A stretch of DNA of 60,224 nucleotides, the filler included, from Hausera hauseri (lineage: Eukaryota), in the NCBI GenBank assembly GCA_046269625.1. It is 12 parts of 12 records of this genome, joined end to end, with 100 filler letters (N's around TTAATTAATTAA, not from the genome) between each part and the next. Parts side by side here need not be neighbours in the genome. Positions count along the whole stretch, not along the records: positions 6,747 to 10,718 come from JBJURY010848191.1; positions 10,819 to 17,733 come from JBJURY010052107.1; positions 17,834 to 22,725 come from JBJURY010401368.1; positions 22,826 to 27,423 come from JBJURY010511351.1; positions 27,524 to 31,662 come from JBJURY010738988.1; 7 more parts are not named here. One strand, written 5' to 3'. The notes below the pieces were generated by a model that worked only from the letters and a program-made list of their open reading frames with translations, searched no databases and was not told the DNA's origin. A program made the translations under genes and the position numbers. This document shows, one piece after another, positions 6,747 through 31,491 of this stretch (the first letter of the stretch is position 1; each line of letters begins with the position of its first letter).

Positions 6747-7696
6747 TGTGCAACGAAACAAAGAAAAGTGAAAAACTATATAGCAGAATTAAAACCAATC
6801 GACGTACCAGATAGACCTATGCAGGCTATGTGTATGGATATAGTAGGACCTTTACCTACGACTCATAAAAATAATAAATACATTGTGACATGCGTAGATC
6901 GTTTAACACATTTTGTGGAACTGATCGCACTAATTGACCAAAAGGCGGAAACTCTAGCCGACGCAGTAGTAAGGAAAATCATCTGCAGATACGGACCACC
7001 CGATCAAATACTAACCGATAGAGGAAGAAACTTTACAAGCAAATTATTTGACAAAATTTCTAAAATCTTCAAAATTGAACAACTAACCAGTACCGCTTAC
7101 TACCTTCAGTGAAATGGGATGGTCGAACGTATGAATGCAACGGTTATACGTGTCTTGTCAACCGTAGTAGAGAAGTATCAAAAGGATTGGGATGAATTTT
7201 TAGAAGGAACACAATTCGCTATCAGGATTTACACCATTTTTTATGATGTATGGACGTGAAAAAATTTTGCCTACGGACTTAGGAATGACTCCGTATTACG
7301 CAAATCCAGAAGATTTGGAACCCAACTTCGCAGAAGTTTTACAAATCAGATTACAAAAATGTTGGGATATAGCCAAGACGCTTACTTTTGAGTATCAAGA
7401 GCAATTTAAGAAACAATACGATAAAAAGGCCAAACCTCACGATTTAGAAAACGGAAAGTGGGTTTACGTACACTATCCAGTTGCCAAGAAAGGTACATCA
7501 TTAAAACTTACTCGCACCGGATGAGGACCTTATGAAGTCATTCGAACCACACCAACTACGGTGTACATTAATAAAAATGGCAAATAAGAGGTAGTATCTA
7601 TTAAAAGTTGTTAAAACAGAAATAAAGCCAGAAAGACGTTACAATTTGAGATCTAGCTCATATCAAGATAAAAAGAAAACGAAGCATCCTCCATAA
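6747..7696 (+). pseudogene. Family B Gypsy integrase core and C-terminus
   Basis: MDIVGPLP, TDRGRNF, NGMVERMN, G*GPYEV (GPY/F motif) and ERRYNLR tail; in-frame stops present. Confidence 0.92.
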
Positions 7697-9057
7697 TCAA
7701 TAGACCAATATCGTATGTTCAAATAATTTTAGCACTATCGCTAATTGCCTCCTACATTCCGAGAACACAAGCTAAATGGTGGTACGACAGCTACGGAGTT
7801 CGAAAAAGTGAAACGGAAAAAAAATCAACGGTCAAAGAAAATCAAAAACAAGAGGATGTAAGACGATTACAAGCAATGAGGATCCACTATTACTCACCTA
7901 ACTCTACATGCGTTGGATTTAAAACACGGAAACCACATCGGAATTTTGGAAGGATCCAAATTACCTTAGACGATGTGACAACAAAAGAAACAAAAAAATG
8001 TGACTTTGAGTCCGAAGAACGCACGGAATGTTGCGACACAAATTTCTGACATACTTATAATTTGACTTATCGTCTGTACCTACCAAAATTATCTAGATTT
8101 TATGAAATAAAACCACAATTTTAACTAGTTATTCCTGCTTGGAATAGGCATCACGAAGTAAAACTAAACGAAATATTGCGATCCACTGACCCAGACATAA
8201 TACTGCTAAACGAAAATATCCAGAAAATCTCTGTGAATAAGAAAAGACAATGTCTTCAAGTAAACACTCGGATGGAACTAACCGTCAGTCGCTAAATCAG
8301 TATCGTGTTTGAGACATTAATAGGACCCACTCCGAAAATAGAATATTGTTCCATTCGTGCAGGTGTACAACATCCATGTTGTAAAATACCCGTGAATCAA
8401 GAATTTAAAATAAGATTTGACTTATACGAGTTACGGCTTAATCAACCAAGCATACAATTACGAATCTACTATCCGGAAAATAGAATCTGGAAACTCTCAA
8501 TGAAAACCTCGACTAAAAAGTCGACCGCTCGATTTATCACGACGGACAATATATTTAAAACAAAACTTGAAGACATACCTATCAGATATTTGGTCCATCA
8601 GAATAGAATAGTGTTCTTTGTTGAGGAACGATTAAACTACAATGTAGAAATAAACTGTCGAACCTTATATGACAGACAAAAAGTAAAACTTATACAAAAT
8701 ACACGACAAGTCGAATGTAATACATTAAAACCCCAGACAGAATACATAATACAAATTAATGCAGCAGGAAGGCAAAATCAGACAATCACCTTACACACTT
8801 TAGCAGAAAGAATTTACCCAGATTCACAAAAAGATCAAGACATAGAAAACATAATTACTACAAATCCGATAACACAAAAAACATTTGAATTAACAACTCT
8901 ACCTATTGTACCAATCATCAGAGTATCAGCATTCATCTTATTAATATTGATTGCGTCATTTTATATAATTGCCAAAAATTGCAAAAAACAGCGTAAAAAT
9001 CGTGATAGAAGGATAAGGGTGGTTTACCAACATGACTTATATGATGAAATAACCTGA
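7681..9057 (+). pseudogene. Type-I membrane protein with signal peptide, FN3-like ectodomain, TM and Tyr-motif tail (family B 3' gene)
   Basis: Single frame with 3 internal stops (8047, 8122, 8293). Signal-like VQIILALSLIASYIPRTQA, paired CC modules, FN3 signature LKPQTEYIIQINA, TM IVPIIRVSAFILLILIASFYIIA, basic KNCKKQRKNRDRR, tail LYDEIT. Confidence 0.7.
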
Positions 9058-9130
9058 CAATTACAGACCAGGTTATTCTGTCATCAGATAGTGAAATTAT
9101 TATGTAATGAAACAAAGGTCTGTCTTAGGA

Positions 9131-9155
9131 TTAACCTTATTTTGTTTTATTTCAG
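9131..9155 (+). promoter_or_regulatory. Putative 3' splice site (branch point + polypyrimidine tract + CAG)
   Basis: TTAAC-CTTATTTTGTTTTATTT-CAG, with an ATG 13 nt downstream (ATG at 9169). Confidence 0.55.
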
Positions 9156-9168
9156 ATTGGTGAGTATC

Positions 9169-10718
9169 ATGGCAACCTGCAGCACTTCATACTTGGACAT
9201 CGATGGATTTTTGCAAACAAACGCGACAGTTATAACCCCACATTCCAAGGCCATCTACAGTCAGATACACTTAGAGATACAGAACAAATCATCAATAGAA
9301 TACAATAAAGTAGATGAAATACCCAACAGTTTGAAAGGAATCGTAGAGGAAAATAGAGTAATACGGTTGTATGCCATGCGAAATAGTGAAGATTCTCGGT
9401 CTTACAAATTACGGAATGTGAGTTAGAACGGAACAGTGACATATATATGCATCTAGCAAAAGGCGATATCTATTATAGATTGACAGAACAAAACTGGGAT
9501 TCGAACAAAGGGCGACAGTCTAAATTTAGCACTTTTAAGCTGTGCGGAGAAAGCTTAATTGAGAAAGAAAAAAAATTAAGAGTCTTAGCCCTACCTATGA
9601 GACTCATGATAGAAATCACCTGTGAAGAAATTCCGATGATATCCCTGCCTTCCTTGATATTCCATCAGTACCCAATGGAGAATCAAATAGGACAACATTT
9701 GGGGTCCTATAAACTGGTGCAGGATGGGCGAAACATCCGTATAATTACCACAAACTACAGAGAAGGAGATGATGGAAATTCCATTCCTATTGAAGTTTCC
9801 ATTAGAGACATGAAGAAAATAGAAATATATTCTAGGTTGATTGCCCCTCGAAAAAAAGTAAAGAAAACTTATGCGCAAATAACAAGCATAAAAAAGACGA
9901 ATTGATAAACGGGAAAGACGCAAAAACTGTAGAAACAGAACTAAACTACTGTTTGTATGGTTGCATGGTTGAGGGATTTTAGATCCAAGAACAAATAAAC
10001 AAATAGAAAATAAAGCCTAAAAATATAGCAGAAATTCAAGAATTTTGGGCTCACCCTAAAATCAGAGAAAAATGGACAGTGTAGACCGACACGCTCCTAT
10101 GACCATGGAAACCCATTTCAAGGCCATGATAGAAATTATGATAGGAACTCATTAGAGAATTAATCGGCAATTGTCAACTACAAAGAGAAGCCAATACCTA
10201 CGCGATATTTATGCTACAATCAGATGGGATCACGAGTGGTCACCATCAAACCCTGAAAATAACCTGCAAAGCAGTATGAATCTAAAGGAAGTGAATTCCC
10301 ACGACCGAAAACAATTCCATCCATATTCGCCAACGCGAATTGTCGAACCCAAAAAGGATAACAGTATGCAGATTACAGTATCAAATAAGGATAAAAATAT
10401 ACAATATACTGTTTTAAACCGAGAAGATATTGCCCAACAAGAAGCAAGTACTACCACATATAGATTCCAGGCACCCATAAAAACAAAGAAAATAGAGAGT
10501 CATCAAGGGACTCCAATTAAAAAGCGCAAATTGAGAGGCCCATCTGCAAAAAAGAAAAAGAGATCACTATTCGGATTTCTAAAGAAGAAAAAAAAAGGAG
10601 CAGTTCAAACTATACAAATTCTTACGGAAGTGAATGTTTTCAAAAGGAAGTAGGATAAGGAAATAACAACCAAAGAAACCCAAAAGGACATGGAAGAACA
10701 ACCTAGCATTCTGGTAAT
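9169..10718 (+). pseudogene. Unknown accessory ORF of family B, disrupted, with basic NLS-like cluster
   Basis: ORFs 9091..9426, 9447..9905 and 10171..10653 appear to be pieces of one gene (1-nt slips at ~9408 and ~9895). Contains KKRKLRGPSAKKKKRSLFGFLKKKKKG. Confidence 0.5.
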
Positions 10719-10818: not shown

Positions 10819-11527
10819 CATTTTAGCAGAAACTTTTAACTTGAAAACAAGTGTAGAGGATGAGGATTATTTCAAGAGTTAACATAGACAAACACTAAAC
10901 ATGGAAAACTAAACTCTCTCCAGACATTTTTTTTTAATTTATAAAAATACTAAACGCCTAACAATTTTCGAACTTGGTCCGTGTGTACTCTTCGTCGTAT
11001 TTTTACCAGCTATGTCGCCTGATGCGATGAACATTGGTGATCCATGTATCAGTGAAATTGCAACAATCGCATTCTATAGAACATCAATAAAATCTTTTTT
11101 TTTTATGTGTGGATTTAAAATATTTCACTATTCTTTTTAACATCCCAGAGATGTGAATAACGAAAAAGCGCAACTATTTCAATTTTCGTATTTCGAATCT
11201 TTTTCAAGATTCCGGAATTCAAAGATTCGAATCTCCCGTCCATATATAGTATGTTATGTGGCAACGTTTATTTACCCTTTCGCGTATGTTTGAACATTTA
11301 AAGATTTTCTCAATAATATCTAGAATGTTTGAACTTGCAGATTTGCTCTTTTGTGAGACATGCTCCAAGTAGTTTGCAGGTAAGAATCACCTTCTGATTC
11401 TCTCAGCTGTCCAGTGCAGTTAAGGTGTGCACTGTTCATAATAAGCACTCTGCACAGCACTACTTCAAGACAGGAACTCTCTCTTTAACCTGACCTTTAT
11501 GTAACATCTACCGAACTCAAGATTAAG

Positions 11528-12797
11528 ATGCTATTTTTTTCCAATAATAAACACCTCGATACTTTCAGTGCGACAAACAGAGACTTTACATTGTCTTTAC
11601 CGATATTTATCTCTCTTGCTTCACACCTCGGATTTTTATTTATCGCATCATGGATCTATCCTTAACGTCTATGACTCGCTTTCTTCCTTTTCTTCTCCAA
11701 TCGATCTCACTCTCGACTTTCCTCTACGGGGTGGATCGGACCCCGATCCTCCTTATGCTGAAAATTCCGCTAAGACCAGATCTTATCGACGTCCTGCTGA
11801 TCCTACACCAACTACCTCTCCTAATCTTCCTTGCACAGAGTTCTTCCTAGACAAAACTAATTCGAGTCGCACCTGGCTACAATTCCATTTGCGATGGCTT
11901 AAAGCCAATCACATCACAGATTCTTTCTTGGGGGCGAACAGCTTGCTGCTGCTTCTTCCAGCAAATATCATGCTACAAATCAACAATCTTGCCGATATAC
12001 TCACCTCTTCAAATCCATACGACATGCTATACGAATCAGTCCTACATATTACCGACCCTTCCATTGATAGCATAATACAAAAGTACTTTAATGAGCATGC
12101 TATCGGAACTCAAAAGCCGTCGGATTTCCTTAAAACTGCAATTTCCGGGCTGAGTCCCTTAGGCGTCACTACTACAAACAATGCCGACTCTCTTCGTCGG
12201 TATTTTCTTTCTTCCTTACCCACCTCTATTAGAGCGTTTCTCACTGTAGTAGACGATTCAACGGCACTCGAGAAACTCACATTTCTGGCAGACAGAAGTT
12301 TCGACATCTTGCAATCAAATAGTTCAGAACCACTAGCTGCAGCAACCGCTCACACGCCATCACACGCAGATAACATTTTATTTTCACAACAACTGCAAAT
12401 TATGAATAAACAATTCGATACACTTCAACAAGCAATTTCTGCGATTACAGCCCAACTTAGTGAGTTATCTGTGTCTTGACGAAGTGAAAACCGTGCTTCG
12501 CGTAATCGTAGTCTTTCCAGGCATTCTTTTCCATCCAAATTTCAAAATGGGAGAATAATTTGTTTTTATCGCAACAAATTCCAGAGACGCAAGGAAGTGT
12601 CTTTTGGGCTGTAGATTTTACGACGGACGTTATGCAGTAGACAGCCCTATCTGCATTTATCACACAAAGTATCAGTCCAAGGCCAGGTCGTGTGGGCCAG
12701 GATGCAAATATTATAAAAAGAATTTTAGTTTTTTCTATCTTCGCCTCCTCGCACTTATCATTCCTCTTCTTTTTCCCAACAAACCTCAAAAAACTAA
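11528..12797 (+). pseudogene. gag: UBL-Gag of family A copy 2
   Basis: MLFFSNNKH...(slip)...FYLSHHGSIL...LDFPLRGG-SDPDPP...LRRYFLSSLPTSIRAFL...LEKLTFLADR, then two C-X2-H-X9-C-X3-C-type fingers (the first degenerate). Confidence 0.85.
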
Positions 12798-12860
12798 CAA
12801 TGCGGCCAGATGCGACGGCACATTCGGGTATAGGCAATACCGCTGAATCTTCTGGCCGTC
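12788..12860 (+). promoter_or_regulatory. -1 ribosomal frameshift signal (A AAA AAC + pseudoknot), partly degenerate
   Basis: AAAAAAC at 12788-12794 followed by TAA. Loop GACGGC (12814-12819) is complementary to GCCGTC (12855-12860). The protease is in the -1 frame. Confidence 0.65.
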
Positions 12861-15800
12861 TTAGCACCGCCTCTGCAGTTTTTCTGTTAAAAGCTGCATT
12901 GCTCCCCAACAATGATTCACACATCGACTTCCTCATTGATTCAGGAGCTGCCTTTTCGCTCTTTCCCTTGTTCTTCACTCCTACATCCACTATAGTTTCT
13001 TCTCCACCGCTTTTTACTGCCAGTGGTCAACCGTTGCACATCGCAGGTACTAAGGAACTGATTTTCACATTCGCCAACTTACCAGATAAGTTTGTCTGGA
13101 AATTCCACGTGGCTAATATTAAATCCTCATAATCGGCTCAAATTTTCTGGCCGCACATGAACTGCTAGTTGACTGCAAATATCGCTGTCTGCTGCGCAGA
13201 AACTCCGCTGTGGATGCTAACAAATACCTACCAAACAGCCCAGTAGAAACTCCGCTGTTTTCGGCTGTTAACTCGCTTGTGAAATTGAAAACTTGTTCGT
13301 CGGCTAATAATGGTACAGTTAGTAATTCATTCATTTCTTCCATCACATCAATCGTATCTAAGTCGGTTTTAAAACAACCGAGTAAATGGAGAGCTGATGG
13401 TGGCAGTTACGGTTGTTCTTCACCAACACCATCTACTGTCGCTTCTGATGATACGCCTCAATCATTCTCATCGCTGGAATCCAATCTTAAATCCTTCATC
13501 AAAACTTCTTGTTTTCGCACTCTCAAGAAGGACGTCAATTTCCAGTCGCATACTACAACTTATCACCACAGTCACCGAACACCAAAGACCTATCAGACAA
13601 AAGGTCAGACCACTGTCACCTCGTAGGCAAAAAGCCGTTGAATCGGAGTTCAATGAACTCGAACAGTTTGGCATTATTCGAAGATCCAAATCACCATGGG
13701 CTTCACCATTGCATGTACTAACAAAGAAGATGGCACTTACAGTCCATGTGGTGACTATCGGCAGTTAAACAATTTAACAGGCCTGGATGCTTACCCTTTA
13801 CCTTTCATAAAGAACATCATGAACAGTCTTACCAACACTAACACGTTCTCCACAAGTGACTTGCATAAAGCTTATCATCAAATTCCTGTTGCACCTGATG
13901 ATATTTCAAAAACTGCTGTTATTACTCCATTTGGCCTTTATGAATATATCTTTATGCCATTTGGTTTACATAGTGCTTCCCAAACTTTTCAACGACACAT
14001 TGATACCGTCCTCTCAGNNNNNNNNNNTCAGGCCTTGACTTTGCCTCTACATCTGTTAAACAACATCAAGAACACCTTCGTATTACCTTTCACAGACTAC
14101 ATCAAACCAATGTGCAAGTCAACTTCTCCAAATGTCATTTCTTTCAAAAACGTGTAAATTTCCTGGGTCACATCACCACTTCTCACGGCCACTCTCCACA
14201 ACCGGATCGACTACAACAATTGAAAAACATAACGCTACCAACGACTACTACGGATATGAGGAGTTTCGTGGGCACACTCCACTTCATTCACAAATACGTA
14301 CTCATTGTTCTAAGTTTACAGCACCTTTTGCACATTTATTATCCGGAAAAAAGAGGCAATCAATCCATTGGACTCCTGATTTAGTCACCAAATTTGACCA
14401 CCTACGGGAAGGCCTAAAAACCGTCGAAATACTAGCCTATCCAAAGCCCAAAACAGATCTTATATTTACCACCGATGACTCTACCACAGTTACTGATGCA
14501 GTACTACACCAGATTTCTAATGGCATCGACAAACCATTACAATTTTACTCCCGAAAACTTATACAACCCGAAAGCCGTTACTCTACATTTGACCGTGAGT
14601 TACTCGTCATAGTTCTGGCAGTAAAACATTTCAAACACCTATTTCCCTCGCGTCCATTTGTCATTCAAACAGACCACAAGCCTCTCCTGCATATAATCTC
14701 GTTAAAACAGCCATTATAAAGTCAAGAACGACATATATCATACCTGTATACATTCAGTTTTGTTTTACAATACATTTCAGGCACAGACAATTTGGTAGCA
14801 GATTTTCTATCGAGGTCGGTTGGCTCCATTACAGTTGAGCCGATTTTCTCATCCGAAGTCTTAAAGCCAATCAACCGCCTGCTGACTTCCTTAGCTCTTT
14901 CAAATCCTTCGAAATGATTGATGGCATTGCTGTTGATACGTCGAGTTCCGGTAATAAAAAGATCATTTTAACTCCACCTTTACAAAAGCTAGCTTTCCTT
15001 TATACACATTCACTGCATCATCCGGATTCTAAAGCCACCTTTCGCCTGCTTCAACGTCATGTAATTTGGCCATCAATGAGCAAAGATGTACATGACTGGG
15101 TTAAGGAATGTGTAGCCTGTCAAAAATACAAAATCAACAAACACGTTAAACCGCCGCTTTATCATTTCCCTTGTACATCACGTTTTCATACGGTTCATCT
15201 TGATCTCGTTGGTCCTTTACCTTCTGACAATGGATATCAATATATCCTTACAATGATGGATCGTGCTTCTCGCTGGCCTGAAGCCATTCCTCTCCGTTCA
15301 AAGATCACTGATTCAGTAGCTGATGCATTTATAAAAATCTGGATCAGTCGTTTTGGTTCCCAACGTTACAAAAAAACGTATCAAGGTCCACAATTTGAGT
15401 CGAAACTCTTCAAATCACTTGTGAAACGCTTGGGGATATCCCATTTTCATATTACACCATATCATCCTCAAGCAAATGGCCTGCTTGAAAGGTTCCATCG
15501 AACAATGAAGATTTCTTTAAAAATCTTGGCTGACGCTCATCGTAATTGGACGTCTATTCTACAATTTGTTTTACTAGGATGGAACAATACACCCTCTACC
15601 ACTACCGGTTGTGCTCCAGCCGAGGCACTCTTTGGGACTCCAATTCGAGCTTTATTTGAACTTTCTGATCTCGACGACAACCCCACAGACGAAGTCATTC
15701 GTGCAGCACAATCTCACTTCGTCGAGGTCATCTCGGACTCCTTCTGCAGTCTCTCCAACAATAACAATTCGTACATTCCGAAGGATTTGTACACCGCAAA

Positions 15801-16333
15801 GTTTGTGTGGCTGAAAGATCAATCGCCTTCGCGTTTTAAACCTTAATATATTGGTCCATACAAACTGCTGAATCTCTTACCTCATACAGCTACCATCTTA
15901 CGCCAAGACAAACCTTACAACGTTCATATTTCGAATTTGAAGCCTGCTTTCTTCATTGATGACAATTTGGATGTCAATTTTACCTCCAGTTCAAACTCAG
16001 CTTTTACTCCTTCTGGTCTATCCACAAACTTTCTCCACGACTTTGTGCCGTTACAGCAATCACTTTTCTGTCACACTCAATCATCATCATATCATCCTTC
16101 CATCTCGTCTCCCTCCCTGTCATCATCACTACCTACTTCATCTCCATTACCTATATCGACTGTTTCATCACCTTCAATTATATAGCCTTTTGTTTGACTC
16201 ATTTCCTTCATCACCCTCATCAGATTCATTACAAGCAACATCAAGTAAGGCACGCAGAGTGACATTTAGCACATTCAGAAAAGAAAAGTTCTTTGATGGT
16301 ACACAATGCCTGATACATACTAAAAACGATTAG
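12788..16333 (+). pseudogene. pol: pol (PR-RT-RH-INT) of family A copy 2
   Basis: Fragmented ORFs 12692..13132, 13397..13768, 13696..14157, 14132..14719, 14914..15846, then an S/P-rich tail ending KARRVTFS...HTKND. A 10-N gap lies at 14018-14027. Confidence 0.93.
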
Positions 16334-16426
16334 GCGCCCAACATTGTTAATTTGTTGCGATTCATTGTTTTCATTCGTCCTATTCTTATCATTCTTTTCA
16401 CTTTTACATAAATTCTCTTCTGCCAC

Positions 16427-16435
16427 AGGGGGTGA
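16427..16435 (+). promoter_or_regulatory. Putative polypurine tract preceding 3' LTR (TG at 16436)
   Basis: AGGGGGTGA|TGTGATG about 95 nt after the pol stop; no matching 5' LTR found. Confidence 0.55.
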
Positions 16436-16569
16436 TGTGATGCCGTGGTCGCGGATTTAACTCGATAGCTGTAGAACCTATATAACGTCAGATAAAACGA
16501 TACAGTACCAACAGTGTAAAATTATCATAGAGCAAAACAAAATATAACCACGAAGAACTCAAAGATCTT

Positions 16570-16750
16570 CAGTATTGTGACGGCAGAAATCGTGGAAATA
16601 AACGAACCACTTGTCTACGCAAATTCACTATTAAATTCGAAATATCGACTTGATATTGTTAGTGAGTATTAAAAGTCATTTAGTTTTAGCTAATCCCGAA
16701 ACTTGACTATGAAGTTGAAAACGTCGTCCTTATCACCGCAATCAATTAAC
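16570..16750 (+). pseudogene. Possible very decayed cadherin-repeat remnant
   Basis: EIVEINEP ... (LVLANP)KLDYEVENVVLITAI, with a frameshift and a stop. Confidence 0.3.
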
Positions 16751-17833: not shown

Positions 17834-19057
17834 CATCATAAAAACGGCATAAATCCTGTTGCTAGATGTGGCGCAATATTAATTGCAAATTGCGTTCCTT
17901 CCAAAAATTCATCCCAATCTTTTTGGTCCTTAGCCACTACTGTTGACAGTATACGTATGACGGTAGCATTCATCCATTCGACCATTCCGTTACATTGAGG
18001 ATGATATGCAGTAGTTGTTAATCGTTCGATTTCGAATATCTTAGTGATTTCCTCGAATAGTTCGCTGGTGAAATTTTTTCCTCGATCTGTGGGTATCTGT
18101 TCTGGGGGCCCGTATTGGCAAATAATCTTTCTTACTACGGCTTCTACTAAAGTCTCGGCCTTTTGATCTATCAATGCTATCAACTCGACAAAATGAGTTA
18201 GGCGATCGATACACGTCAAGATATACCTATTGTTCTTGTGAGTCGTAGGAAGAGGTCGTACGAATCCATTCACATGGCTTGCATGGGCCTGTCGGGTACA
18301 TCAATTGGTTTCAATTTGGACATATAATTTTTCGTCTTCTTTTGTTTAGTCGCACATACTTCACAGGTGTTTATCCAATTTTTCACATCAATATAGATAC
18401 TAGGCCAAAATTATTTATTCATTATTCTTTCTAATGTTTTTTCCAAGACATATGTCCGGCTAAGTATGAATCATGTTTTGACATTAGTACTTCAGTTCGT
18501 ATACTTTTGGGATAACTATCAATTTTCTTTTTTTCCCTTCGTAATATAAGGTGTCTCTTTCGCTCTCGTCATTTAAGACATAATATTTGTGTCCATGCCT
18601 GTGTAAATGTTTCTTTAACTGTCGTCCTTTTGATGTAATATCCCTTTCAGTAAATTCTATAATCTGCTGGATAACTTTATCCTTTCTCTGCTCTGTTGAA
18701 ATCTTGATGGCCCTATCTATTGTTAACGCGCGTTGGCGGTTTATTATCTCCTCAAGTTGACTTTTCTTCATTACAGTAATTGCGCTTGTTTTAGTCTTTA
18801 ATCTTGATAGTGCATCTGCGTCTACATGTTTGTTCCCTGCCTTATATTGAAATTCAATGTTGTAACTTGATATTTCCTTGATCCATCTGTTAAGTCTGCA
18901 TGTAGGGTTATCTACTCGCCCTTTTAAGGTTTTGACGGCCTTGTGGTCCGTGACAATTATAATTTTCTACCCATATACATAAACACTAAAATGTCGAAGT
19001 GCTTCTTTTACAGCTAGAGTTTCTAATTGGGTAACAGAATAATTTTTCTCGACCTTC
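17834..19057 (-). pseudogene. pol: Family B RNase H C-half + integrase (copy with internal deletion)
   Basis: Collinear with 27524-28750: EKNYS..LETLAVKEAL, TDHKAV, HVDADALSR, PTTHKNN..DRLTHFVEL, YHPQCNGMVE. Homology to pol stops abruptly at 19057. Confidence 0.92.
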
Positions 19058-19899
19058 TACTACTACATCGTAGCGATTCATCATTTCCTTTTTTATAAAT
19101 TTTAGTCCATGCTGATCCGAGATTAATATAGTAGGTGTAGGGTGTTCCGATACATCTTCGCGTGTCCTTGAATTAGTCTCCGATTTGTCTACATATTGTT
19201 TCCAGGTGGTTTCATTAAACTTTAGCTCCTTAATTTTGATAAAGTTACAGCTTCTTCCAGAGGGAGATTCCCATATTATAACAGAACTTCTAAAAGCACA
19301 GGATTCGTCTTGTAAGTAGCATTTCTGATTCTCAGTGTGTAACTTAGTAACACTATGAAATATTACCTTCTGTAATCGCATTTCTGATTCGAAGAAATTC
19401 ACAACTATCACATTTGGTTCTAATCCTTTTCCGGTATCGTATTCTGCTCCATTACAATGTTCGCTATGCATATTCAGCCTTCCAGCTACTACTTTGTATG
19501 CTCTGATTATCTTCCCTGGTTGCATTTCTAATTTCATATTGTCCCATTGTACTCTTCCAGACTCTTTAGCTTGTTTGCAGTGTTGGCGTTGTAAATTCAT
19601 TGGAATTAGTGGAGTAGTTGGCTTGATTATGGAGTAATGTCCGTGTATTAGTCCACAGTGGAAGATACTATGTGATCGTCTCAACATGCACTCCATTCCG
19701 TCTAACGATATCAATTCTTGCTGTTTGATACAGGAAGTAACTTTTCTCTCGTTTCCAATTTGTGCGGTCGGACATCCTCGCATACTTCCAGGTCTATTAA
19801 GGAATATCTCTGTCCTAATTTAAACTTATCGCAATCATAGACGGTTACCGCGCTAATGTGCTTCATTAGCATCATTAAGGCAAGCAAGGTAATTAGCCA
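19058..19899 (-). pseudogene. env: Class III (chuvirus/herpes gB-like) envelope glycoprotein, signal + N-terminal half
   Basis: WLITLLALMMLMKHISA|VTVYDC...YSLIDLEVC...EC.L.RS..IFHCG..GH...C..A..SG...C.GAEY...CYLQDESC....IIW......C. This Cys/motif pattern is typical of chuvirus-like glycoproteins. Frameshift at ~19735. Confidence 0.75.
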
Positions 19900-21759
19900 A
19901 TTTGATTCATTTTTTCGACCTCCTACGTCTGACGTTGTCAGGCTACGTAACATATAGTCGAGTTTATTGTTGTTTCGTTTGTCTTTTTCCTTGTCAAATA
20001 GTCTTGCCCAATTTACTTCGTCAGGCATTCTTGCTGCTTTCCGTGCTAAGCTTATAGCCCTATTGATCTCATTCTCTTGATTAGGATTGATTTTGATAGC
20101 TAAATATAGTAATACTTTTCTCAATTCTTCATTCGTGTTTTCTACCACGATCTTTTCTATTACTGACTCGCCGGATAAGTTACTTTTTGATAGTTTGAAA
20201 CGTGAACTTCTAATCATTTTGGCTGCATCGAAAATTATCTTTTCTTTATCATCCATCACATCTCGAAAACTAGAATAATTCACAATTCATATTAAATTTT
20301 TCATTAATTCGTTTAATTCCTCGTTGTCTGGGCTAAGAGTCGGAATCGACATCTGTCTCAATTCTCTAATTAATTCTCCGTTGTAATCCACTTCTTCTCG
20401 CATTTTTCTATGTCTGCCTACCGGGCGTTTTGGTCTTGGACCCTTAGCGGTTATTTGACTCAGTGGTACTAAATTTGTGTCGTATTGTTCCTTATATTCG
20501 TCTGTTTGTAAATACTCAAAATATAGTGCAGCGTCTCGAACTCCCATGATTTGTCCTACGCATTGTTCTGTTTTGGCTTTATGTGTAGCTTCTTCTTTTG
20601 TCTGTTTGTTAGCTATTACTACTATTATCCAATATGTTTCGTCAGGAATAATCCCAACGTCTGTTAGTTGTTCTAGGTCATCGAGTATTCTACCTCTAAA
20701 ATAAAATCTGTAGTTTAACTCGTTCGTTCCACCATTGTTTACTACCCATTCTCTTACGTCCTTTACGTAGGAGTATGTAGTCAACTCGCATTCTTTTTCG
20801 TCCATCCATTCGGATGACACCATTACCTTCATCGTCACCACAGGTTTAGCCCTCAAGATTTTAACGCAATTCCTTATCAAAAGTTTCGGCACCGCACTAT
20901 AAATCGTGTTTTCGCTAGATAATTTAGTTAAAGTTGGAATAAATTGTCCTAATTTATTCTCAGTAATATTTACATTAATTAGTTCAATCAAATCCCTTTC
21001 AGTTAGCGCTGAATACAGTAGTATATCCACATTGAATCTCCTGTTCTGCGGACATATTTCTATTGCGTTTAGTTGTACTGCAGTTATAGGTTTTCCGGCA
21101 AGTATTGCGTCGAAGTATGCATCCCATTCGGATTCATTTCCGGCATCCGGAAGTCGATCGTCCGCTAAAGCCGTATTGGCTCTTTGAATATTTTCCTTAA
21201 TTTCCTTTAATCTAGGCTGTATTTCTTTCATTTGCGTACTTCGGAAACCTGCTCCGTTTCCACAGGCATACTGTATCATTTTCAGTAATTCGCTTAATTC
21301 GTTCGGGCCGACCAGCCCTTTCTGGTGATAATCTGTCAATTCAAGGATCACATCCTTTTGCCATCTTTGTACGAATTCTCGTTTATTCTTAATCTCTAAT
21401 TCGGTAAAAGCATATTTGTTTCGATAGACTTCGAGCTCCTTTGTTATTTTCTCTAACTTTGTTGCTTTTTGTTTCGTCTTGATACATATTTCTTCTACTT
21501 TCTGTATCTTAGGCATCAATTGCATCATCTGTTCATCACTGATTTCTGCCATTTCCACCAATAAATAGGCTAACTCATACAGCTCATTTATAACCTTTGA
21601 ATCAGGGTCTACTGCGTCCGATAATTTCTTTACTAACTTGTATTCCTGAAAACTAAAATGTGGGTCGTTCCCTATTTCTATCAACTTGGTATGGAAATTC
21701 TGATCTGATCCGGCCATCCATTCTTGAGGTTTGTGCAAAAACTTTATTGCGTTTGTCAA
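19900..21759 (-). pseudogene. Family B N-terminal polyprotein segment: helical/coiled region + internal ubiquitin-like domain (20614-20832)
   Basis: ORFs 20287..21759 and 19711..20283 share a frame, separated only by TGA at 20287-20289. UBL: MKVMV...VKDVR...YRFYFRGRILDDLEQLTDVGIIPDETYWIIV. Confidence 0.65.
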
Positions 21760-21889
21760 CGTATCTCGATGCCCTGGATAAATGTCCAGTATTTCAATGT
21801 CTTGTGCAAAATTTCGTTGATTGGTTTTCCTGTTAAGTATTGTACTACTTCTAGTCGAACAATCTTTAACTTTGAGTTCACATCATAAA

Positions 21890-22687
21890 TCATATTCCGT
21901 TTTCCGTAAAATTCGTCTCTTCGATCAGTTTGTATATTTTCTCCATCATCAACGCTTCTCGTTCCCTTTCCGTAAATTTTAGTTGTCGTAGCGCTTCGAA
22001 TTGAGTACGGATGTCGGTTTCTATCCGTATTGTGCCAAGGTCATGCGCACTTTCTTCTAAATGTTTTATTACCGTTGGTTCGCTTTGTGGAAATTCTGTT
22101 TTGCGGTCTTCTACCAATTTGCTTAATCGCGTTATTAATTCGTACCATTCCGACAATTGATTTGCGATGATTGGTTTTGCTGTTATAGCTCTATCTAACA
22201 TCTTATGTACATCTCTTAACTCATCGTTCGGCCCTCTTAGAAAGTTCATAATCCGGGCGATATAATTAAACTCGTTTTTATACTCGTCCAATTCTACTAT
22301 ACAAGCCTTTATTACGTATTGAGTATCCTCGTTGTTTGGGAACATAATTCTCAAAAATTCGTTAAACCCGTCCGGATCTCTGTCATATGCCGGCAGGTTT
22401 AGGGAATCGAACGTGAAAATTTCCAGCTTCTGCGCTACTGGTGGATTATCTGCTGCTATATTATTTACGTTTTTTAGCTCTAAATTTGCTTTATTTACTT
22501 TAGGTTTCTCAAGTGTAATTTTAAACTGTTTATTTTGCATGACAACTTTTAGTTTGTTTCTATTCTCGGAGTTTGAACGTTTATCTACTTTTTCTGTTTC
22601 TCTATATATGTTTCGACGTGTCTCACGTATAGGTGAATTGTCCTTTAGTATATGATTTATTCCTGACCTATCAATGTTTGTTCTCTA
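21890..22687 (-). pseudogene. Putative Gag/capsid-like ORF of family B
   Basis: LNLPAYDRDPDGFNEFL resembles the LP.FDG.P....EF motif at the start of LTR-retrotransposon capsid domains. The frame is open about 50 codons upstream of ATG 22540. Confidence 0.45.
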
Positions 22688-22725
22688 TTAAGTTTTGCTT
22701 ACTTATTCCCGTAAAAATAGCCTAT

Positions 22726-22825: not shown

Positions 22826-23245
22826 AAGACTACAAATGCTGTCTCATACGTGAAACTTTACGAGCAATATAAACAACACCTGAATCAGTTTTATCAGTCT
22901 AACACCAAAAAGATGATTCAGCCTATTTCATCAAATAATCTGATGTTGCAACCAAATGACCAAATGGAAAAATGCAATGCGGCCAAATTCAACCAAATTA
23001 CATTCTATATCTGGTGAAGTTGTAAAACGGCAGAAAAGGTCAAATTCTCTGACTTTTACAATCAGCATGAAATACATCTTGTGCCATTTCAGATATTCAA
23101 GAAAACTAATATTTTCAGAGATGCCCTCAAGGATCAGCCGCCAACCGCAACAATACGCAGCAGGAAAGCCAAATGTTAGTCTCAAGCAATACCAGCGACA
23201 ACGAGTAACAAGAATATTAGAATACGAACGGCCGATACACATGCA

Positions 23246-26123
23246 ATGAACAGAAAGGTGAATATTTTCAATATGAATGCAAGTGAAGATGACCATGACA
23301 TCACGAATTTCCTCAACAATAACAAATCGGAAGTTGAAGGCATTATTAGAGATGAACTGCAACGTCTCAATGGAATAAAAGTCAATCTGTTTCGGAAGTC
23401 CCTGTATTCAAATATAGATGGAGAAATTTCTCAACGAACCTTTAAAATAAAGAGTAAGGCAGTATTATTGGATATGGACATCAGTGAATTTCTCGAAACG
23501 GACTACCAAAAAATAATCAACGAGGCTGATGAAAGTGAGTCCAAAAAAGCAGATGTACTCTGTCGGCATTCAGAAAACTCAGTGTTAGGGTAAACAAATA
23601 CTCACCAATCATAGGATCCTTGTATGTACCGTTGCCAAACTGGATTGTGAAAACAAAAGCATGTATCAACGTGCAAAACTACTATGATCAGCAGTGCTTC
23701 AAATACGCAGTATTAACGAAACTGCTTGTAGATCAAAATAAAAATCACCCACATCGAGTAGCAAGGTATGAAACCCGTACACATTCATGATTTTTTATGC
23801 ATACAATATTCCCAAATGTACATGAAATTAAGAATTTTGAAAAGGTAAATAATATGCCAATTAATGTATTTTCCATGATGAAATCAATAAAATATATCCT
23901 ATGAAAGTGTGCAAGAATGAATATGATGAACACAGGTACATGTTGTTACTCATCAGTGGTGAAACAAATCATTTTGTCTATATACAAAACTTGGAACATT
24001 TAGTGAAATCACAAATTACCGGACACCACGAACGAAGTTATATTTGTAATAGATGTCTGACACACTTTGATAATCAAACTAAACTGTAGAACCACAAAAT
24101 TTATTGGAATAGCAAACAAGCACTTCGACCGGATTTTCTGATTGAAGACAATATAGAATTTAAGGAATATGAAAGACGCATTCGAGTACCGTCGTAATTT
24201 ACTGCGACTTCGAATCCATCTTGAGGCCAGATTGTACATGTAATCCAAGTAATGACAGATCGAGCACAACAACCACTCACATACATGAGCCTATGTTGTT
24301 TCCAAAGGGCTACAGCGATAAACTTATCCTTTACAGAGGACAGAATGCTGAATCAATTTTCATGAGTGAATTGAAACGGATCTCATGGAAGTAGAAAAAT
24401 ACCAGAAAAACCAATAGAAATCGATAGAAATGATAACGAGTGGCATGAACAGCGTCAGTGTGTTACCTGTGTGAAAAACAGTTTATTGAAAAAAATTATA
24501 AAGTCGATGACTACTACCAATTTTCAGGAAAATACCGCGGTGCAGCCTACCATAATTGCAACTTGAGACGTAGGGGCATTCGGTTCATTCCAGTAGTATT
24601 TCATAATTTGTCGGGTTACGATTCACTCTTTTTCGTTTGAGAATTAGGTAAACCACAGGGTCCAACATCCTTCATTCCACATAACGAAGAACGGTAAATT
24701 ACGTTTACAAAACATTCCGGAAAAATTGAGCTGAGGTTCGTAGATAGTTTTAAATTTATGAACAGCAGCCTGGATGAACTGACAAGGAATATGCCCGATG
24801 ATTCTTTCAAGGAGACAATGAAATACTGCCAATGATCAGTTGTTTAATTTTGTTAGAAGAAAAGGAGTGCTTCCATAAGAGTACATAAGTGATTAGGATA
24901 ATCTCAATGAAATATCGCTGCAGGCAAAAGAATGTTTCTACAGCACTATATATCAATCAAACATAACATATGGAGATTATGAGCATGCTCAAGCAGTCTG
25001 GCATGCGTTAAAATGTCAGACAGTACACTAGCATATCGACATTTATTTGAAAACAGATGTCCTATTACTGACTGATGTGTTTGAACGGTTTCAGGATGTA
25101 ACGGTAGCATCATATAAAGTAGACTCGGCTCACTATTTTGCAGCACCATGACTCATATGGAGTGCAATGTTGAAAGGACGTTTATAAGGATGGAAATTAT
25201 CAAATATTACGACATGATTCTCATGCTGGAGCAAGGAATTAGAGGAGGATTACGTCAGGTTGTACACCGATAGGCTGAAGTCAACAATAAATACATGAAT
25301 GAAATGTACAATGAAAGCCGGAAATCAATGTACACATCTTACTTGGACGCCAACAACTTGTATGATTGGGCTATGTCACATTATTTACCGTGCGCAGACT
25401 TCAAATAGACCGAACGGAACGGTGAAGACATTGATATACTCAGCATCTGTCCAACAGCCGATACTGGATACATTTTTGAGGTGGACATTGAATATCTTGA
25501 GAGCTTACACGGGCATAGTGATCAACTACCATTTTTATCGGAAATAGTTAATGCTCCAGACAGTAAAAATAAGAAACTAATACCTCATATTGGAAATCGA
25601 CGGAGATGTGGTCTATTACATATTCCTTCAACAAGCCATACAACATGGACTGAAGGTCGTTAAAATCCACAGAAAAATTCAGTTTAACCAATCTCCACGA
25701 CTACAGTCATATATAGAGTTTAATAAAGAATTTAGAATAGTAGCCACTAATGCCTTTGAAAAAGACCAGTATAAGCTGTACAACAATGCCGTATTCGGGA
25801 AAACAGTGGAGAATATTAGAAACCGAATGCAGATTGAACTGGTCAATGAATGGAAACGGGCCAAAAAGCTTTTCGCGAAGTCAAATTTTCTGCACTCTCA
25901 GATCTACACAGAAAATCTCATCGGTATTCACATGTTGAAAACTCGCTTGGAGTTTAGTAAACCAATTTATGTCGGCATGTGCACACTGGATCTAAGCAAA
26001 ATACTGATATATGATTTTTATTACAATGTTAAGATTTCGAAGTTTGGTTTGGTTCTATTGCAGCTATTGTACATGGATACTGATTCATTGGTGTACAGAA
26101 TATGTAGTGTGCCAAGAAAATAA
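23246..26123 (+). pseudogene. polB: Polinton/Maverick (adintovirus-type) protein-primed family B DNA polymerase, decayed
   Basis: INVQN..QCFKYAV, ICNRCL.HF, YCDFES, GKYRGAA..NCNL, FHNLSGYDS, FVDSFKFM.SSL, GIRGG, YLDANNLY.WAM, KLYNNAVFGKT.EN.R.R, KPIYVG, LLYMDTDS. Confidence 0.92.
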
Positions 26124-27423: not shown

Positions 27424-27523
27424 NNNNNNNNNNNNNNNNNNNNNNNNNNNNNNNNNNNNNNNNNNNNTTAATTAATTAANNNNNNNNNNNNNNNNNNNNN
27501 NNNNNNNNNNNNNNNNNNNNNNN
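27424..27523. other. Artificial contig spacer
   Basis: 44 N + TTAATTAATTAA + 44 N. Confidence 0.99.
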
Positions 27524-30500
27524 ATGAAGAATGGGGTAAATCCTGTCGCTGGATGTGGCGTGGTATTAATTGCAAATTGAGTTCCTTCTAAAAATTCATC
27601 TCAATCCTTTTGGTCCTTTGCTACTACTGTTGATAATATGCGTATGACTACAGCATTCATCCGTTCGACCATTCCGTTACACTGAGGGTGATATGCGGTA
27701 GTTGTTAGTCGTTCGATTTCGAATATTTTGGTGATCTTTTCGAATAGTTCACTTGTGAAATTTCTTCCTCGATCTGTGAGTATCTGATCTGGGGGGCCCG
27801 TATCGGCAAATAATTCTTCTCACTACGGCTTCTGCTAAGGTTTCGGCCTTCTGATTGATTAATGCTATTAACTCGACAAAATGAGTTAATCGATCAATAC
27901 ACGGTAAGATATACTTATTGTTCTTGTGAGTTGTAGGAAGAGGTCCTACAATATTTATCGACATGGCTTGCATGGGCCTATATAGCACATCAATAGGTTT
28001 TAATTCGGTCATGTAGTTTTTCGTCTTCTTCTGTTTAATTGTACACACTTTGCAGGCATTTACCCCGCTTTTCACATCAATGTAGATACTAGGCCAAATG
28101 TATTTATTCATTATTCATTCTAATGTTTTCTTCCAGGACATGTGTCCGGCCAAATATGAATCACGTTCTGACATCAGCACTTCGGGGCGAAAGCCTTTTG
28201 GGATAACTATTAGTTTTCTTTTTTTTCGCTCGTAATATAAAATATCTTCATTGCCCTTGTCATTTAAAATGCGATATTTATGTCCATGTCTGTGTAAATG
28301 TTTCTTTAACTGTTGTCCCTTTGATATGATATTCCTTTTAGCAAATTCTATAATCTGCTTGATAACTTTATCTTTCCTTTGTTTTATTGGGATTCTAATT
28401 GCTTTATTCATCCTTAAGGTGCGTTGGCGATCTATTATTTCTCCAAGCTGACTTTTTTTCATTACTGTAATCGCACTCGTTTTAGTCTTTAATCTTGATA
28501 GAGCATCGGCATCTACATGTTTATTCCCTGGATTATACTGAAATTTGATATTATATCTGGAAATTTCTTCGATCCATCTGTTGAGTCTACATGTTGTGTT
28601 ATTTTCTCGACCTTTCAAAGTCGTAACGGCCTTGTGATCGGTGACGATTATAATTTTCTGCCCGTATGCGTAAACGTTGACGTGGCGAAGTGCTTCTTTT
28701 ACGGCTAGAGTTTCCAATTCGGTAATAGAATAGTTTTTCTCGGCCTTCCTCAAGGAACGTCCTCCATAACCAAATCGGGTGCTCTAATTCTTCATATTTT
28801 CTTTTCTGCGCCAATTCATATCCAATGCCTTTATTACTGGCGTCTGTCTTGATTATGAAAGGTAAGTTAAAATCTTGATATCGTAAAACAGGTTCACTTG
28901 TTAATATCTTCTTCATTTCGTCGAAGGCTTTCTGTTCGACATCTGTCCATTTCCATTTAATTTCTTTCTTCAGCAAGCGGTATAGAGGTGCATTAATTTT
29001 TGAATTATCTGGTACATAGGTTGCGTAATATCCGCAGAGTCTCAACCAGTGTCTTAATTCCTTCTGGTTTTGTGGTTCCATGCAGTCTGATATTTTATTT
29101 AGCAGCGATTTATCTGGCTTCGATCCTCCTTCTACAACTATATGGCTAAGGTAGGATACTGCGTCTTGAGCCCATTTGCATTTCTTCGGATTCAACTTCA
29201 ATCCGGCTTGTTCCAATCTCATCAATGTATGTTCGATATACTTTAAATGTTCCTCCTCGATCCTTGATGCTATCATTAAGTCATCTAAATACACAAAAGC
29301 ATGATCCAATCCCACTAGCATTTTGTTCATCATTCTGGTAAATATGACTGGTCCAGTAGTAATACCGAATGGTATGATGTTAAATTCGTAAACAGCATCG
29401 TGCGTTTTAAATGCTGTCTTATAACGGTCTTTATCTTCAATCTCCACTTGCAAATATCCGGATTGTAAGTACAGAGTGGTAAACCATTTTGCTCCTGAGA
29501 GTCTGTCTAAAGCCTTTTTGACCGACAGTAGTAAAAAGGAATCTTTCATCAAGAGGTTATTTAAAGCTCTGTAATCAATACAAAATCGATGTTTCGTAGT
29601 ACTTTTCTTCTTAACCATGAGGATTGGTGAATACCAAGATCTATATTTGAGCCTAATTATATCTGCTTTAAGCATTCGTTCGACTTCCTTCGTTATTTCG
29701 GGTCTTAGAGAATGTGGCGAAGGGTACCATTTTGGCATCTTTTGGTATTCCAAGTTTATTTCTTTATTCGAACCGGGCTTTTTCTTGATCGGGATTGTCA
29801 GTTTTAACGCTTTTGCTGTACCGATATCTTTGTCCTTAGCAAAAATCGATTTGTAGCGGCACAATTGTTTGTAAAATCGACAATAAGATTCGGGAGAAAA
29901 TTTAGTTTCGACATGAGGTGGAAATTCGGCATACTTGTAACGCTTTTCTTCAATAGTTATCAACGACACCCTATACATGTCTCCCAAGGTAATATAAGCA
30001 TGAAGCTTGACGGGAGTCGGCGCATTATTAACTATTTTGATCAGCACTCGACCGGAGTGTACTCTTGTTAATACATTGCTGGGTAATATATTCGGATCTA
30101 ACGTATCTCTTGTTTCTAAATGTACGGATTGATCGTCATCTTGCTGTATCTGGGCATAAATTATCATTTCTGTTCTCGGTAGAATGTTTTCGTCAACTGT
30201 TATCCACACCTCTCCGAATTTCCTATCCTTAGCAATTTTCACGCCTTTATTTGGTCTGATTTCGATTAACTTCCCTGTTTGTAAATCGATTGCTATATTT
30301 GGTAATCTTTTCAGTAGATCGCATCCTAGAACTACATCATCGGTTAATTGCTCCATGACTGCAAATTCTTGATGGAAAAACTGTTTAACTATTTGGACTT
30401 CTGGGTTCCATTTAAACATCGGTTTCGACATTTGACCAAAAGCTCCTGTACTTCCTGGATCTTTCGTAGACGGTGGGTATAATTGTCCTCTCAGTGTTTT

Positions 30501-30734
30501 AGGTATTGAATCATTTTTGATGTAAGACATCTCGGATCCTGTATCGATTAAGGCATAAACTTCCAAATCCTCAATTATTATTTTGGTGAAGGGTCTTCCT
30601 TCTATTATTGTTCCGATACAGTTTGATGCAACTTTTTGGCGTTTAGTTGCTGATATTTTATGTCCGTTGATTCGTATTTCTGGAGAGGATACTATATTTT
30701 CCGACAGCTGTCTTAATGCTTCGTATGTATATAA
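27524..30734 (-). pseudogene. pol: Family B pol: PR - dUTPase-like spacer - RT - RH - INT
   Basis: ALIDTGSE, RFCIDYRALN, SGY.QV, PFGI, VYLDD, TDAS..GIG, EKNYSITELETLAV, GHMS..KT, IVGPLP. The frame is open from 30734. Confidence 0.95.
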
Positions 30735-31491
30735 CTAGTTGTTTCCTATGTGCAATTTTTCCGCTTCATGTGTACTAATTAACGGTTCTTGATTGTTCGT
30801 GTGTAGTTCAGTATTCTGGAAAATTTTTAACCTTGGATTGTCCCAAACCGTTGATCTAGTTTCTATATTTTGAGGTTCTCTCGGAGAATACAACATCTTG
30901 GAAGCATCTGTGGATTGTCGGTAGCACATATTCCGTAGAATCCCGTAACGTTTCGTTCCTTCATAAGGGTCTTCTACATTAATTTTCCTTTTATAGATTT
31001 CCGTCTGATATAATCTCATTGATTGTTTGTCGCAGTCTTCATGGAATGGGGCGGTAGGGGGTATCATTGGCAATGGTGCTTTAATGACAGAGTATGTCTC
31101 ATGTCTGTTTATTCCTGAAAGTACTTCTCCTCCCTTAGTCTCGTCATTATCTGAATTATTTCTTCGTGTATTATGTTTCGTAAATTTCTGCTTCTGCAAG
31201 AATATAAGTCTTCTTCTTCTTTTACGATTATAATGACCGACATGACGTTATACGTCGGATTTCAATCTGTTTTCTTCGTATGCCTTTAAGAATTTTCCAA
31301 AGGGCGCTATGATTACAGTCAAAATTTTGCACGAAAATCCGGTCAACGTAAATATTTCATACCCATTAATTACGGCTTGGATAAATGCCTTGATCATTTG
31401 TATTAGAAAATATATATCTAAGAATCCGAAAATTAAGAATTTCCCCAAATTTTGTATAGTATTTCCGTGGTTACGCGATGGTAATGATGCT
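30735..31491 (-). pseudogene. env: Envelope C-terminus (membrane-proximal/TM) + cytoplasmic tail, in frame with pol
   Basis: (KIWG)KFLIFG..IY..IQMIKAFIQAVINGYEIFTLTGFSCKILTVIIAPF matches the chuvirus-GP C-terminal pattern W..F..FG...IK..I...I.GY....G.S..LL, followed by RKRRRR. ORFs at 31448, 31199 and 30566 share one frame. Confidence 0.7.

What the first reader, a model, noticed from the sequence alone, without database searches (positions are those of the whole stretch)
6747..31491. Reconstructed complex retrovirus-like Gypsy element (family B): Gag-like/UBL - class III Env - PR-RT-RH-INT - FN3 membrane protein - spliced nuclear ORF
Seen: three contigs (6747-10718 +, 17834-22725 -, 27524-31662 -) share a near-identical integrase (LPTTHKNN.YI..C.DRLTHFVELIALI.QKAETL) and tile one element. 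Their non-pol parts give, 5' to 3': a capsid-motif ORF, a helical region with a ubiquitin-like domain, an internal signal peptide, a chuvirus/gB-like ectodomain, TM, tail, pol, a second type-I membrane protein and an NLS-bearing ORF. Established: retroviruses and env-bearing Gypsy/BEL elements normally place env 3' of pol, and gB/chuvirus-type envs are known in some invertebrate LTR elements. Inference: this is an enveloped element with env between gag and pol plus a second surface protein, an architecture I do not recognise. The composite joins different copies, so it remains a reconstruction.
Basis: partly seen in the sequence, partly recalled or inferred. Interest (0 to 1): 0.92.

Follow-up and report, generated by a model that had tools for sequence, protein, structure and literature searches.

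The report
Burro-like retroelement with second membrane protein
These are three broken pieces of an abundant virus-like jumping-gene family whose intact relatives carry coat, viral fusion protein and copying enzymes in one giant protein (a layout already published for planarian "Burro" elements), and that protein ends in a predicted second cell-surface protein, not found described, which likely helps the particles attach to or pass between cells.

Summary
The three contigs are separate decayed copies of one Ty3/Gypsy lineage. They overlap only in RNase H/integrase (75-83% DNA identity, not near-identical), and two are rearranged: c4 jumps from mid-env to RNase H; c6 starts with a duplicated piece of pol. 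About 270 of 648 env profile positions are absent from the window. The gene order is still real: natural open polyproteins read Gag-signal-class III (PF24664) Env-TM-PR-RT-RH-IN, and c6 RT groups with them. This layout, with ubiquitin-like and Bcl-2-like domains before env, is published for planarian Burro/GYPSM1 (PMC6431247) and for nematode, bryozoan and flatworm elements (PMC13524379). Not found in print: the polyprotein continues after integrase into a signal-ectodomain-TM protein (8 of 8 relatives against 1 of 113 other Gypsy polyproteins), whose c2 repeat folds as FN3. Capsid, zinc knuckle and Bcl-2 were not detected in the window; the 'spliced nuclear ORF' has no homologue and splicing is untested. 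The scan noted this layout before in other genomes.

The parts
21890..22684 (-). c4 5' ORF in the Gag position (264 aa); capsid not detected
   Evidence: no hit in Pfam, relatives' capsid profiles or Atlas; multi-copy in runs X1 and X2 (72)
20287..21882 (-). c4 helical region (531 aa) holding a helix+ubiquitin-like module at 20602-20997
   Evidence: Pfam ubiquitin E 0.053-0.088, below cut-off; relatives' profile iE 1.8e-7; P0124 match E 1.6e-7 (44)
19900..20286 (-). c4 spacer in the position where relatives have a Bcl-2-like domain; no Bcl-2 similarity detected here; same frame as the 531-aa ORF, one stop between
   Evidence: (probability 0.1)
19849..19899 (-). internal signal-peptide-like stretch before env
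   Evidence: sequence; aligned with the same stretch in relatives
19073..19848 (-). N-terminal part of a class III (Monjiviricetes/gB-type) Env ectodomain, with one frame break; truncated
   Evidence: 16 relatives at E<=0.001, all PF24664; env profile positions 11-295 (126)
17834..19057 (-). c4 RNase H C-terminal part and integrase, abutting the truncated env (rest of env, PR and RT missing)
31491..31662 (-). c6 5' end: 89.5% copy of pol 29859-30030 (rearrangement or assembly joint)
31281..31445 (-). Env membrane-proximal and TM region
   Evidence: env profile positions 566-625, iE 2e-7 (126); P0009 pairwise E 3e-5 (38)
30735..31247 (-). cytosolic tail/linker in frame with TM and PR, between two stops
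27524..30734 (-). c6 pol: PR (DTG at 30545), PR-RT linker 29970-30329, RT (YLDD at 29291), RNase H, integrase; frame breaks
   Evidence: Pfam RVP, RVT_1, RT_RNaseH, rve
6747..7650 (+). c2 integrase core and C-terminal domain
   Evidence: rve E 2.6e-16 (6); P0009 2108-2417 (31)
7702..7773 (+). signal-peptide-like stretch after integrase, same frame as the IN C-terminus (below the 2.0 hydropathy threshold used)
   Evidence: sequence; position matches post-IN signals of relatives
7774..9057 (+). second type-I membrane protein: ectodomain with FN3 repeat 8560-8841, TM about 8905-8955, tail ending YDEIT; in-frame stops in its N-terminal half
   Evidence: 9 stops in 618 codons against 44-48 in the other frames
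9169..9905 (+). downstream ORF pieces (9169-9426 and 9390-9905); no homologue; splice-like signals untested
   Evidence: multi-copy but thinner cover
10156..10653 (+). ORF with K/R runs (NLS-like); no homologue

Best explanation
The three contigs are decayed, partly rearranged copies of one Ty3/Gypsy lineage whose intact relatives encode Gag, a class III fusion glycoprotein, PR-RT-RH-IN and a second predicted type-I membrane protein (often with FN3 repeats) in one open frame, which is likely threaded through the ER membrane, cut up, and assembled into enveloped particles that likely use the FN3 protein to attach to or pass between cells. Inferred topology: Gag and the ubiquitin-like (in some relatives Bcl-2-like) cargo stay in the cytosol; an internal signal sends Env into the lumen; the Env TM returns the chain so that PR-RT-RH-IN are cytosolic; a second internal signal exports the FN3 ectodomain; the last TM leaves a short tail with a tyrosine motif, ending in Val in most relatives. 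Signal peptidase and the element's protease would free the parts. Shown: domain order, frame continuity, homology, predicted fold. Inferred: topology, cleavage, particle formation, attachment role.
For: P0009, P0121, P0123 and L003 hold capsid or knuckle, env and pol in one ORF; P0127, P0132, P0141 and L001 hold env and pol. c6 RT's nine best hits are such polyproteins or their cluster mates, and it sits in a 9-member clade with them (support 0.884, 127 RTs). In c6, TM to RT lies in one frame with 3 stops in 964 codons against 69-77 in the other frames; in c2, IN C-terminus to FN3 tail has 9 in 618 against 44-48. Two post-IN hydrophobic segments: 8 of 8 env-before-pol relatives against 1 of 113 other Gypsy polyproteins. 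FN3: relatives' repeat profile hits c2 at iE 6.9e-13; the PDB hits of the repeat profile are almost all FN3 proteins, best E 1.9e-4; the model has 7 strands, pLDDT 80, and Foldseek top hits are FN3 domains. Tails end in Val in 6 of 8. Thousands of diverged contigs cover all 30 bins of c4 and of c2 in two runs.
Against: No single window contig holds the whole order, and no copy is intact. Capsid, knuckle and Bcl-2 are not detected in c4. The integrase tree does not place the three copies beside the env-bearing relatives (sister group of other Gypsy proteins, support 0.68, 129 aa). L003 falls outside the 9-member RT clade. FN3-like repeats appear in 5 of 8 relatives only; P0009, P0121 and L003 have other ectodomains. 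The repeat motif was designed with the window's copy in view, so that E-value is partly circular. In L001 the first flagged post-IN segment is probably a strand; its signal was judged by eye. The 113 controls come from a length-limited RT search. No functional data exist for the second protein.
Confidence: 0.75

Rival explanations
1. Same architecture, but the second membrane protein is not an attachment factor: it acts on the host cell as a receptor decoy, a superinfection block or a signalling/scaffold adaptor through its tail.
For: The ectodomain varies widely (FN3 in 5 of 8; one or two repeats; L001 has an extra signal-FN3-TM cassette between env and RT), while the membrane anchor and a Val-ending tail are kept. 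Relatives carry other host-manipulating cargo: Bcl-2-like, ankyrin, exonuclease.
Against: Translation in one frame with Gag and Env ties its amount and site of synthesis to particle parts; many class III fusogens depend on a separate attachment protein (own knowledge, herpesviruses).
Confidence: 0.35
2. One reading: c2, c4 and c6 belong to different subfamilies with different cargo, and the ORFs after 9169 are specific to the c2 subfamily or are another repeat.
For: c2 is about 25% diverged from c4/c6; overlap is in RH/IN only. Contig cover drops roughly tenfold after about 9140 (summed depth, not copy number). No relative matches 9058-10718; L001 has unrelated ORFs in that slot.
Against: The region is still covered in all bins by many diverged contigs in both runs and lies on the same strand directly after the polyprotein stop.
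Confidence: 0.4
3. The env-RNase H joint in c4 and the pol-env joint in c6 are assembly chimeras of a collapsed repeat rather than real deletions, so the window says little about gene order on its own.
For: The family is high-copy and assembles into short pieces; no listed contig bridges the c4 joint, though the tables were cut.
Against: The order on each side of the joints matches intact relatives; internal deletions are common in old LTR elements (own knowledge).
Confidence: 0.3
4. Env and the FN3 protein are separate nested insertions in an ordinary gag-pol Gypsy element.
For: Only that the window's copies are broken.
Against: Eight independent relatives carry them in frame with pol; frame continuity in c2 and c6.
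Confidence: 0.02

Closest known systems
Burro / GYPSM1 giant gypsy-like elements of planarians (Arkhipova and Yushenova 2019, PMC6431247; section 7 read in full, figure not seen; Grohme et al. 2018 not held)
   Same: One polyprotein Gag - Ubi/SUMO-like - BCL2-like - env (hits to mononegavirus fusion glycoproteins) - PR - linker - RT-RH-IN; ankyrin cargo; accessory ORFs. Relatives found here show UBL, Bcl-2-like and ankyrin in the same slots.
   Different: Section 7 mentions no membrane protein after integrase. The window's copy shows no detectable capsid, knuckle, BCL2, BIR or MATH. Size and LTRs are unknown here. No sequence comparison with Burro was possible.
GAG-ENV-POL errantiviruses with HSV/gB-type env in Nematoda, Bryozoa and Platyhelminthes (Chary and Hayashi 2026, PMC13524379; abstract, part 1 of sections 5 and 6, section 22, passages and supplement 1 rows read)
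   Same: Ty3/Gypsy pol, class III env placed before pol, multi-copy.
   Different: Main text has 0 occurrences of 'fibronectin', 'ubiquitin', 'Bcl', 'polyprotein' and 'accessory'; no second membrane protein is described in what was read.
Nematode endogenous retroviruses of Sacco et al. 2022 (J Gen Virol; not held; seen only as cited in PMC13524379, rest recalled)
   Same: Flipped env/pol order (cited); recalled as a continuous gag-env-pro-pol ORF with extra ORFs.
   Different: Recalled as nematode-restricted; whether they carry a post-integrase membrane protein could not be checked.

Membership tests
Ty3/Gypsy (Metaviridae) | pol order PR-RT-RH-IN with Gypsy-type RT | tested here: met
Ty3/Gypsy (Metaviridae) | LTRs, PBS, PPT, TSD | not testable with these tools
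   contigs end inside the element; no genome held
GAG-ENV-POL errantiviruses (gB-type) | class III env 5' of pol | tested here: met
   c6 TM in frame before PR; c4 env before RH/IN; PF24664 in all relatives
GAG-ENV-POL errantiviruses (gB-type) | recognisable Gag capsid 5' of env | tested here: inconclusive
   not detected in c4, whose 5' end may be cut or diverged; present in P0009, P0121, P0123, L002, L003
Burro/GYPSM1 | env in frame between gag and pol in one ORF | tested here: met
   relatives fully open; window pieces frame-continuous apart from decay
Burro/GYPSM1 | Ubi2/SUMO-like domain before env | tested here: met
   Pfam scores are below the curated cut-off
Burro/GYPSM1 | BCL2-like domain directly before env | tested here: not met
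   absent or unrecognisable in c4; present in relatives
Burro/GYPSM1 | retrotrans_gag with CCHC knuckles | tested here: not met
   no CCHC in c4 (126); no capsid hit
Burro/GYPSM1 | dUTPase-like domain between PR and RT | tested here: inconclusive
   a conserved linker is present (iE 7e-12 to relatives) but gives no dUTPase hit in Pfam or PDB
Burro/GYPSM1 | giant size, planarian host, RT clade shared with Burro | not testable with these tools
   no Burro sequence, no full copy and no host name available; so filed as Burro-like in layout, not as Burro

The most novel reading that the evidence does not exclude
A lineage of invertebrate retroelements has a two-glycoprotein entry system made from one flavivirus-like polyprotein: a class III fusogen before pol and a captured FN3 adhesion-type protein after integrase that serves as a swappable attachment or cell-junction-targeting module, which no retrovirus or errantivirus is described to have.
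Probability: 0.4. Interest if true: 0.7.

Novelty: new variant of a known kind. Interest (0 to 1): 0.36.

Why it matters
The headline (env inside a Gag-Pol polyprotein) is published. What is added is a conserved signal-ectodomain-TM extension after integrase in 8 of 8 relatives, FN3-folded here. If it is an attachment or junction-targeting protein, these elements separate binding from fusion as herpesviruses do, and offer a defined handle on how enveloped retroelements move between cells of invertebrates. The window's copies are dead fragments and are a poor source for that work; intact natural relatives are better.

Tried and rejected
No genome held. Env piece: no hit among longer proteins, in PDB or in viral contigs. 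Bcl-2 in c4: rejected. Capsid in c4: not found. dUTPase by PDB profile: no hit. Downstream ORFs: nothing in Pfam, the Atlas (104, best 0.88 to unnamed clusters, low recognition score), or the session's proteins and 3 loci. No RNA holder listed, so no statement on expression or splicing. No listed contig bridges the c4 joint, tables cut. A codon-position tally of listed variant sites was dropped: few sites, and mostly private to this copy. Literature: 'gag-env-pro-pol' 0 papers; LTR retrotransposon + fibronectin type III + envelope + integrase + transmembrane 0; Burro + retrotransposon + fibronectin 48 papers, the 10 listed unrelated; gypsy + retrotransposon + chuvirus + glycoprotein + flatworm 0; retrotransposon + Bcl-2 homolog + gypsy + envelope 4 listed, unrelated. 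Sacco 2022 and Grohme 2018 were not held; Repbase and the figures were not seen; any of these may already show the second membrane protein. Supplements of PMC13524379 gave no hit for four env motifs, but cells are cut at 400 characters. Contig look-up by exact protein was closed, so the DNA context and host of P0009-P0142 are unknown. No complex prediction was run.

Full report
Layout. The window is 12 contigs joined by spacers; no genome is held. The finding concerns c2 (6747-10718 +), c4 (17834-22725 -) and c6 (27524-31662 -). They overlap only in RNase H/integrase: 74.8% over 476 nt (c2/c4), 75.7% over 478 nt (c2/c6), 82.7% over 1212 nt (c4/c6). Their integrase cores are 74-84% identical and form a clade with support 1.0 among 122 sequences. 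They are one lineage but three different, old copies.

The pieces do not tile. c4 runs from a Gag-position ORF through env and then jumps to the middle of RNase H near 19057-19073; the rest of env, PR and RT are missing. c6 begins with 172 nt that copy its own pol (89.5%), then the env TM, a tail and PR-RT-RH-IN. A 648-position env profile built from 11 relatives, window left out, covers positions 11-295 in c4 and 566-625 in c6; 296-565 are absent. I compared the copies with natural relatives and did not join them.

Natural relatives. The best-scoring single-RT hit of c6 RT was P0009, a 2871-aa open protein with Retrotrans_gag, PF24664 Monjiviricetes fusion glycoprotein, PR, RT, RH and IN in that order. 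Its env found P0121, P0122 and P0123. The c4 env piece found 16 proteins among 1.84 billion representatives, all PF24664. A metagenome scan gave three loci from 160 candidates. Eight non-redundant relatives have env before pol and reach integrase: P0009, P0121, P0123, P0127, P0132, P0141, L001, L003 (cluster mates P0139, P0140, P0142 left out of this count). P0009, P0121, P0123 and L003 include the capsid region in the same ORF; the others start later or are 5'-open. In a tree of 127 RTs, c6 lies in a 9-member clade with seven of them and P0142 (support 0.884); L003 lies just outside, with three proteins lacking an env hit in between. The 129-aa integrase tree does not recover this grouping.

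Modules in the window. A helix+ubiquitin-like profile from four relatives (five modules) hits only 20602-20997 (iE 1.8e-7); Pfam ubiquitin is weak (E 0.05-0.09). The relatives' capsid profiles, Pfam and the Atlas do not recognise the 21890-22684 ORF, and c4 has no CCHC knuckle. Five relatives have a Bcl-2-like domain before the env signal; c4 does not match it. Frame continuity argues for one original ORF: 3 stops in 964 codons from TM to RT in c6 (other frames 69, 77), 9 in 618 from the IN C-terminus to the tail in c2, and 1 in 723 in c4.

The second membrane protein. All 8 relatives have two hydrophobic segments after the integrase core, against 1 of 113 other Gypsy polyproteins, and that one has a glycoprotein-like hit in the usual env place. 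Caveats: a plain hydropathy threshold; c2's own signal falls under it; L001's signal was judged by eye; the controls come from a length-limited search. A cysteine-bearing repeat occurs in c2 and in 5 of 8 relatives; a profile without the window hits 8593-8790 at iE 6.9e-13, with some circularity in the motif choice. The profile with the window retrieves 52 PDB sequences, nearly all FN3 proteins, best Tie2 at E 1.9e-4. AlphaFold2 gives a seven-strand domain, pLDDT 80, whose Foldseek top hits are FN3 domains of neogenin, irisin, NCAM2 and fibronectin (E 1e-4 to 1e-3, TM about 0.65). Tails end in Val in 6 of 8 relatives; c2 ends YDEIT. The idea of looking at the tail came from note e1-7907855.

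The 3' ORFs (9169-10653) have splice-like hexamers and K/R runs but no homologue, and no RNA run was listed. Two DNA runs cover all 30 bins of c2 (7026 and 611 contigs) and of c4 (15293 and 1073), mostly 80-99% alike, so both belong to a high-copy family; cover is thinner after about 9140 (X1 may be related to the window's source). L001 has unrelated ORFs in the same slot, so this looks like a variable accessory slot. Splicing and nuclear location are untested.

Mechanism. Shown: order, homology, frames, predicted fold. Inferred: co-translational threading with Gag and cargo cytosolic, Env luminal, Pol cytosolic and FN3 luminal; release by signal peptidase and PR; budding with a class III fusogen; the FN3 protein acting in attachment or cell-to-cell passage. 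The main rival is a host-modulating role. The window's copies cannot do any of this as they stand.

Known systems. Its section 7, read in full, describes planarian Burro/GYPSM1: one ORF with Gag, Ubi2/SUMO-like, BCL2-like, env with hits to mononegavirus fusion proteins, PR, dUTPase-like, RT-RH-IN, and calls it the first in-frame env between gag and pol. PMC13524379 reports GAG-ENV-POL with gB-type env in nematodes, bryozoans and flatworms. Neither text as read mentions a membrane protein after integrase, and searches found none; Grohme 2018, Sacco 2022, Repbase and the figures were not seen. The scan's notes record the same layout in other genomes and call this genome a probable flatworm; I did not test the host.

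Verdict. A real feature, mostly known in layout, here seen only in dead fragments. It is Burro-like but not filed as Burro, because BCL2 and Gag knuckles were not found in this copy and no Burro sequence could be compared. The conserved post-integrase FN3 membrane protein is the part worth keeping. Interest 0.36; new variant of a known kind.

Noticed in passing
L002:2566-3033, L001:830-1270, P0124, P0125, P0136: Bcl-2-like domain (BH1-BH2 region) shortly before the env signal: Pfam Bcl-2 in 4 of 5 members (best 2.3e-5), all 60 PDB hits shown are Bcl-2/Bcl-xL, Foldseek top hits Bcl-xL at weak E-values. The env signal could double as its membrane anchor (inference).
   Followed up: yes
L001:4700-5300: An extra signal-FN3-like-TM cassette lies between two proteases and the RT-proximal protease, so this polyprotein would have three predicted membrane proteins.
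   Followed up: partly
L001:10617-12107: Separate ORF after the polyprotein with an RNase T-type exonuclease (E 1.4e-5), then a coiled-coil ORF.
   Followed up: partly
P0141, P0122, P0127, P0133: Multiple tandem aspartic protease domains (up to 7 stretches in P0141); ankyrin in P0141; C2H2-like fingers in P0141 and P0127.
   Followed up: no
P0132: A full Env-Pol-FN3-like polyprotein is deposited as a hypothetical protein of a Flavobacteriaceae MAG; probably animal DNA binned by mistake.
   Followed up: no
P0014: The one control with two post-IN hydrophobic segments has a weak rhabdovirus glycoprotein hit after integrase, i.e. env in the usual place.
   Followed up: no
window 1993-3977 and 4549-5634: Intron-free, broken cadherin-repeat-like and glycosyltransferase-like host-gene pieces upstream of a family-A Gypsy gag (read by eye); fits the host-mRNA capture noted elsewhere in this genome.
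   Followed up: no
window 23180-26123: Decayed pieces resembling a protein-primed DNA polymerase B (Polinton-like), by eye.
   Followed up: no
window 10819-17733, 42673-46685, 51268-55952, 56053-60224: A second Gypsy family with no env seen; its c3 integrase is about 30% identical to the studied ones and falls in a different clade.
   Followed up: partly
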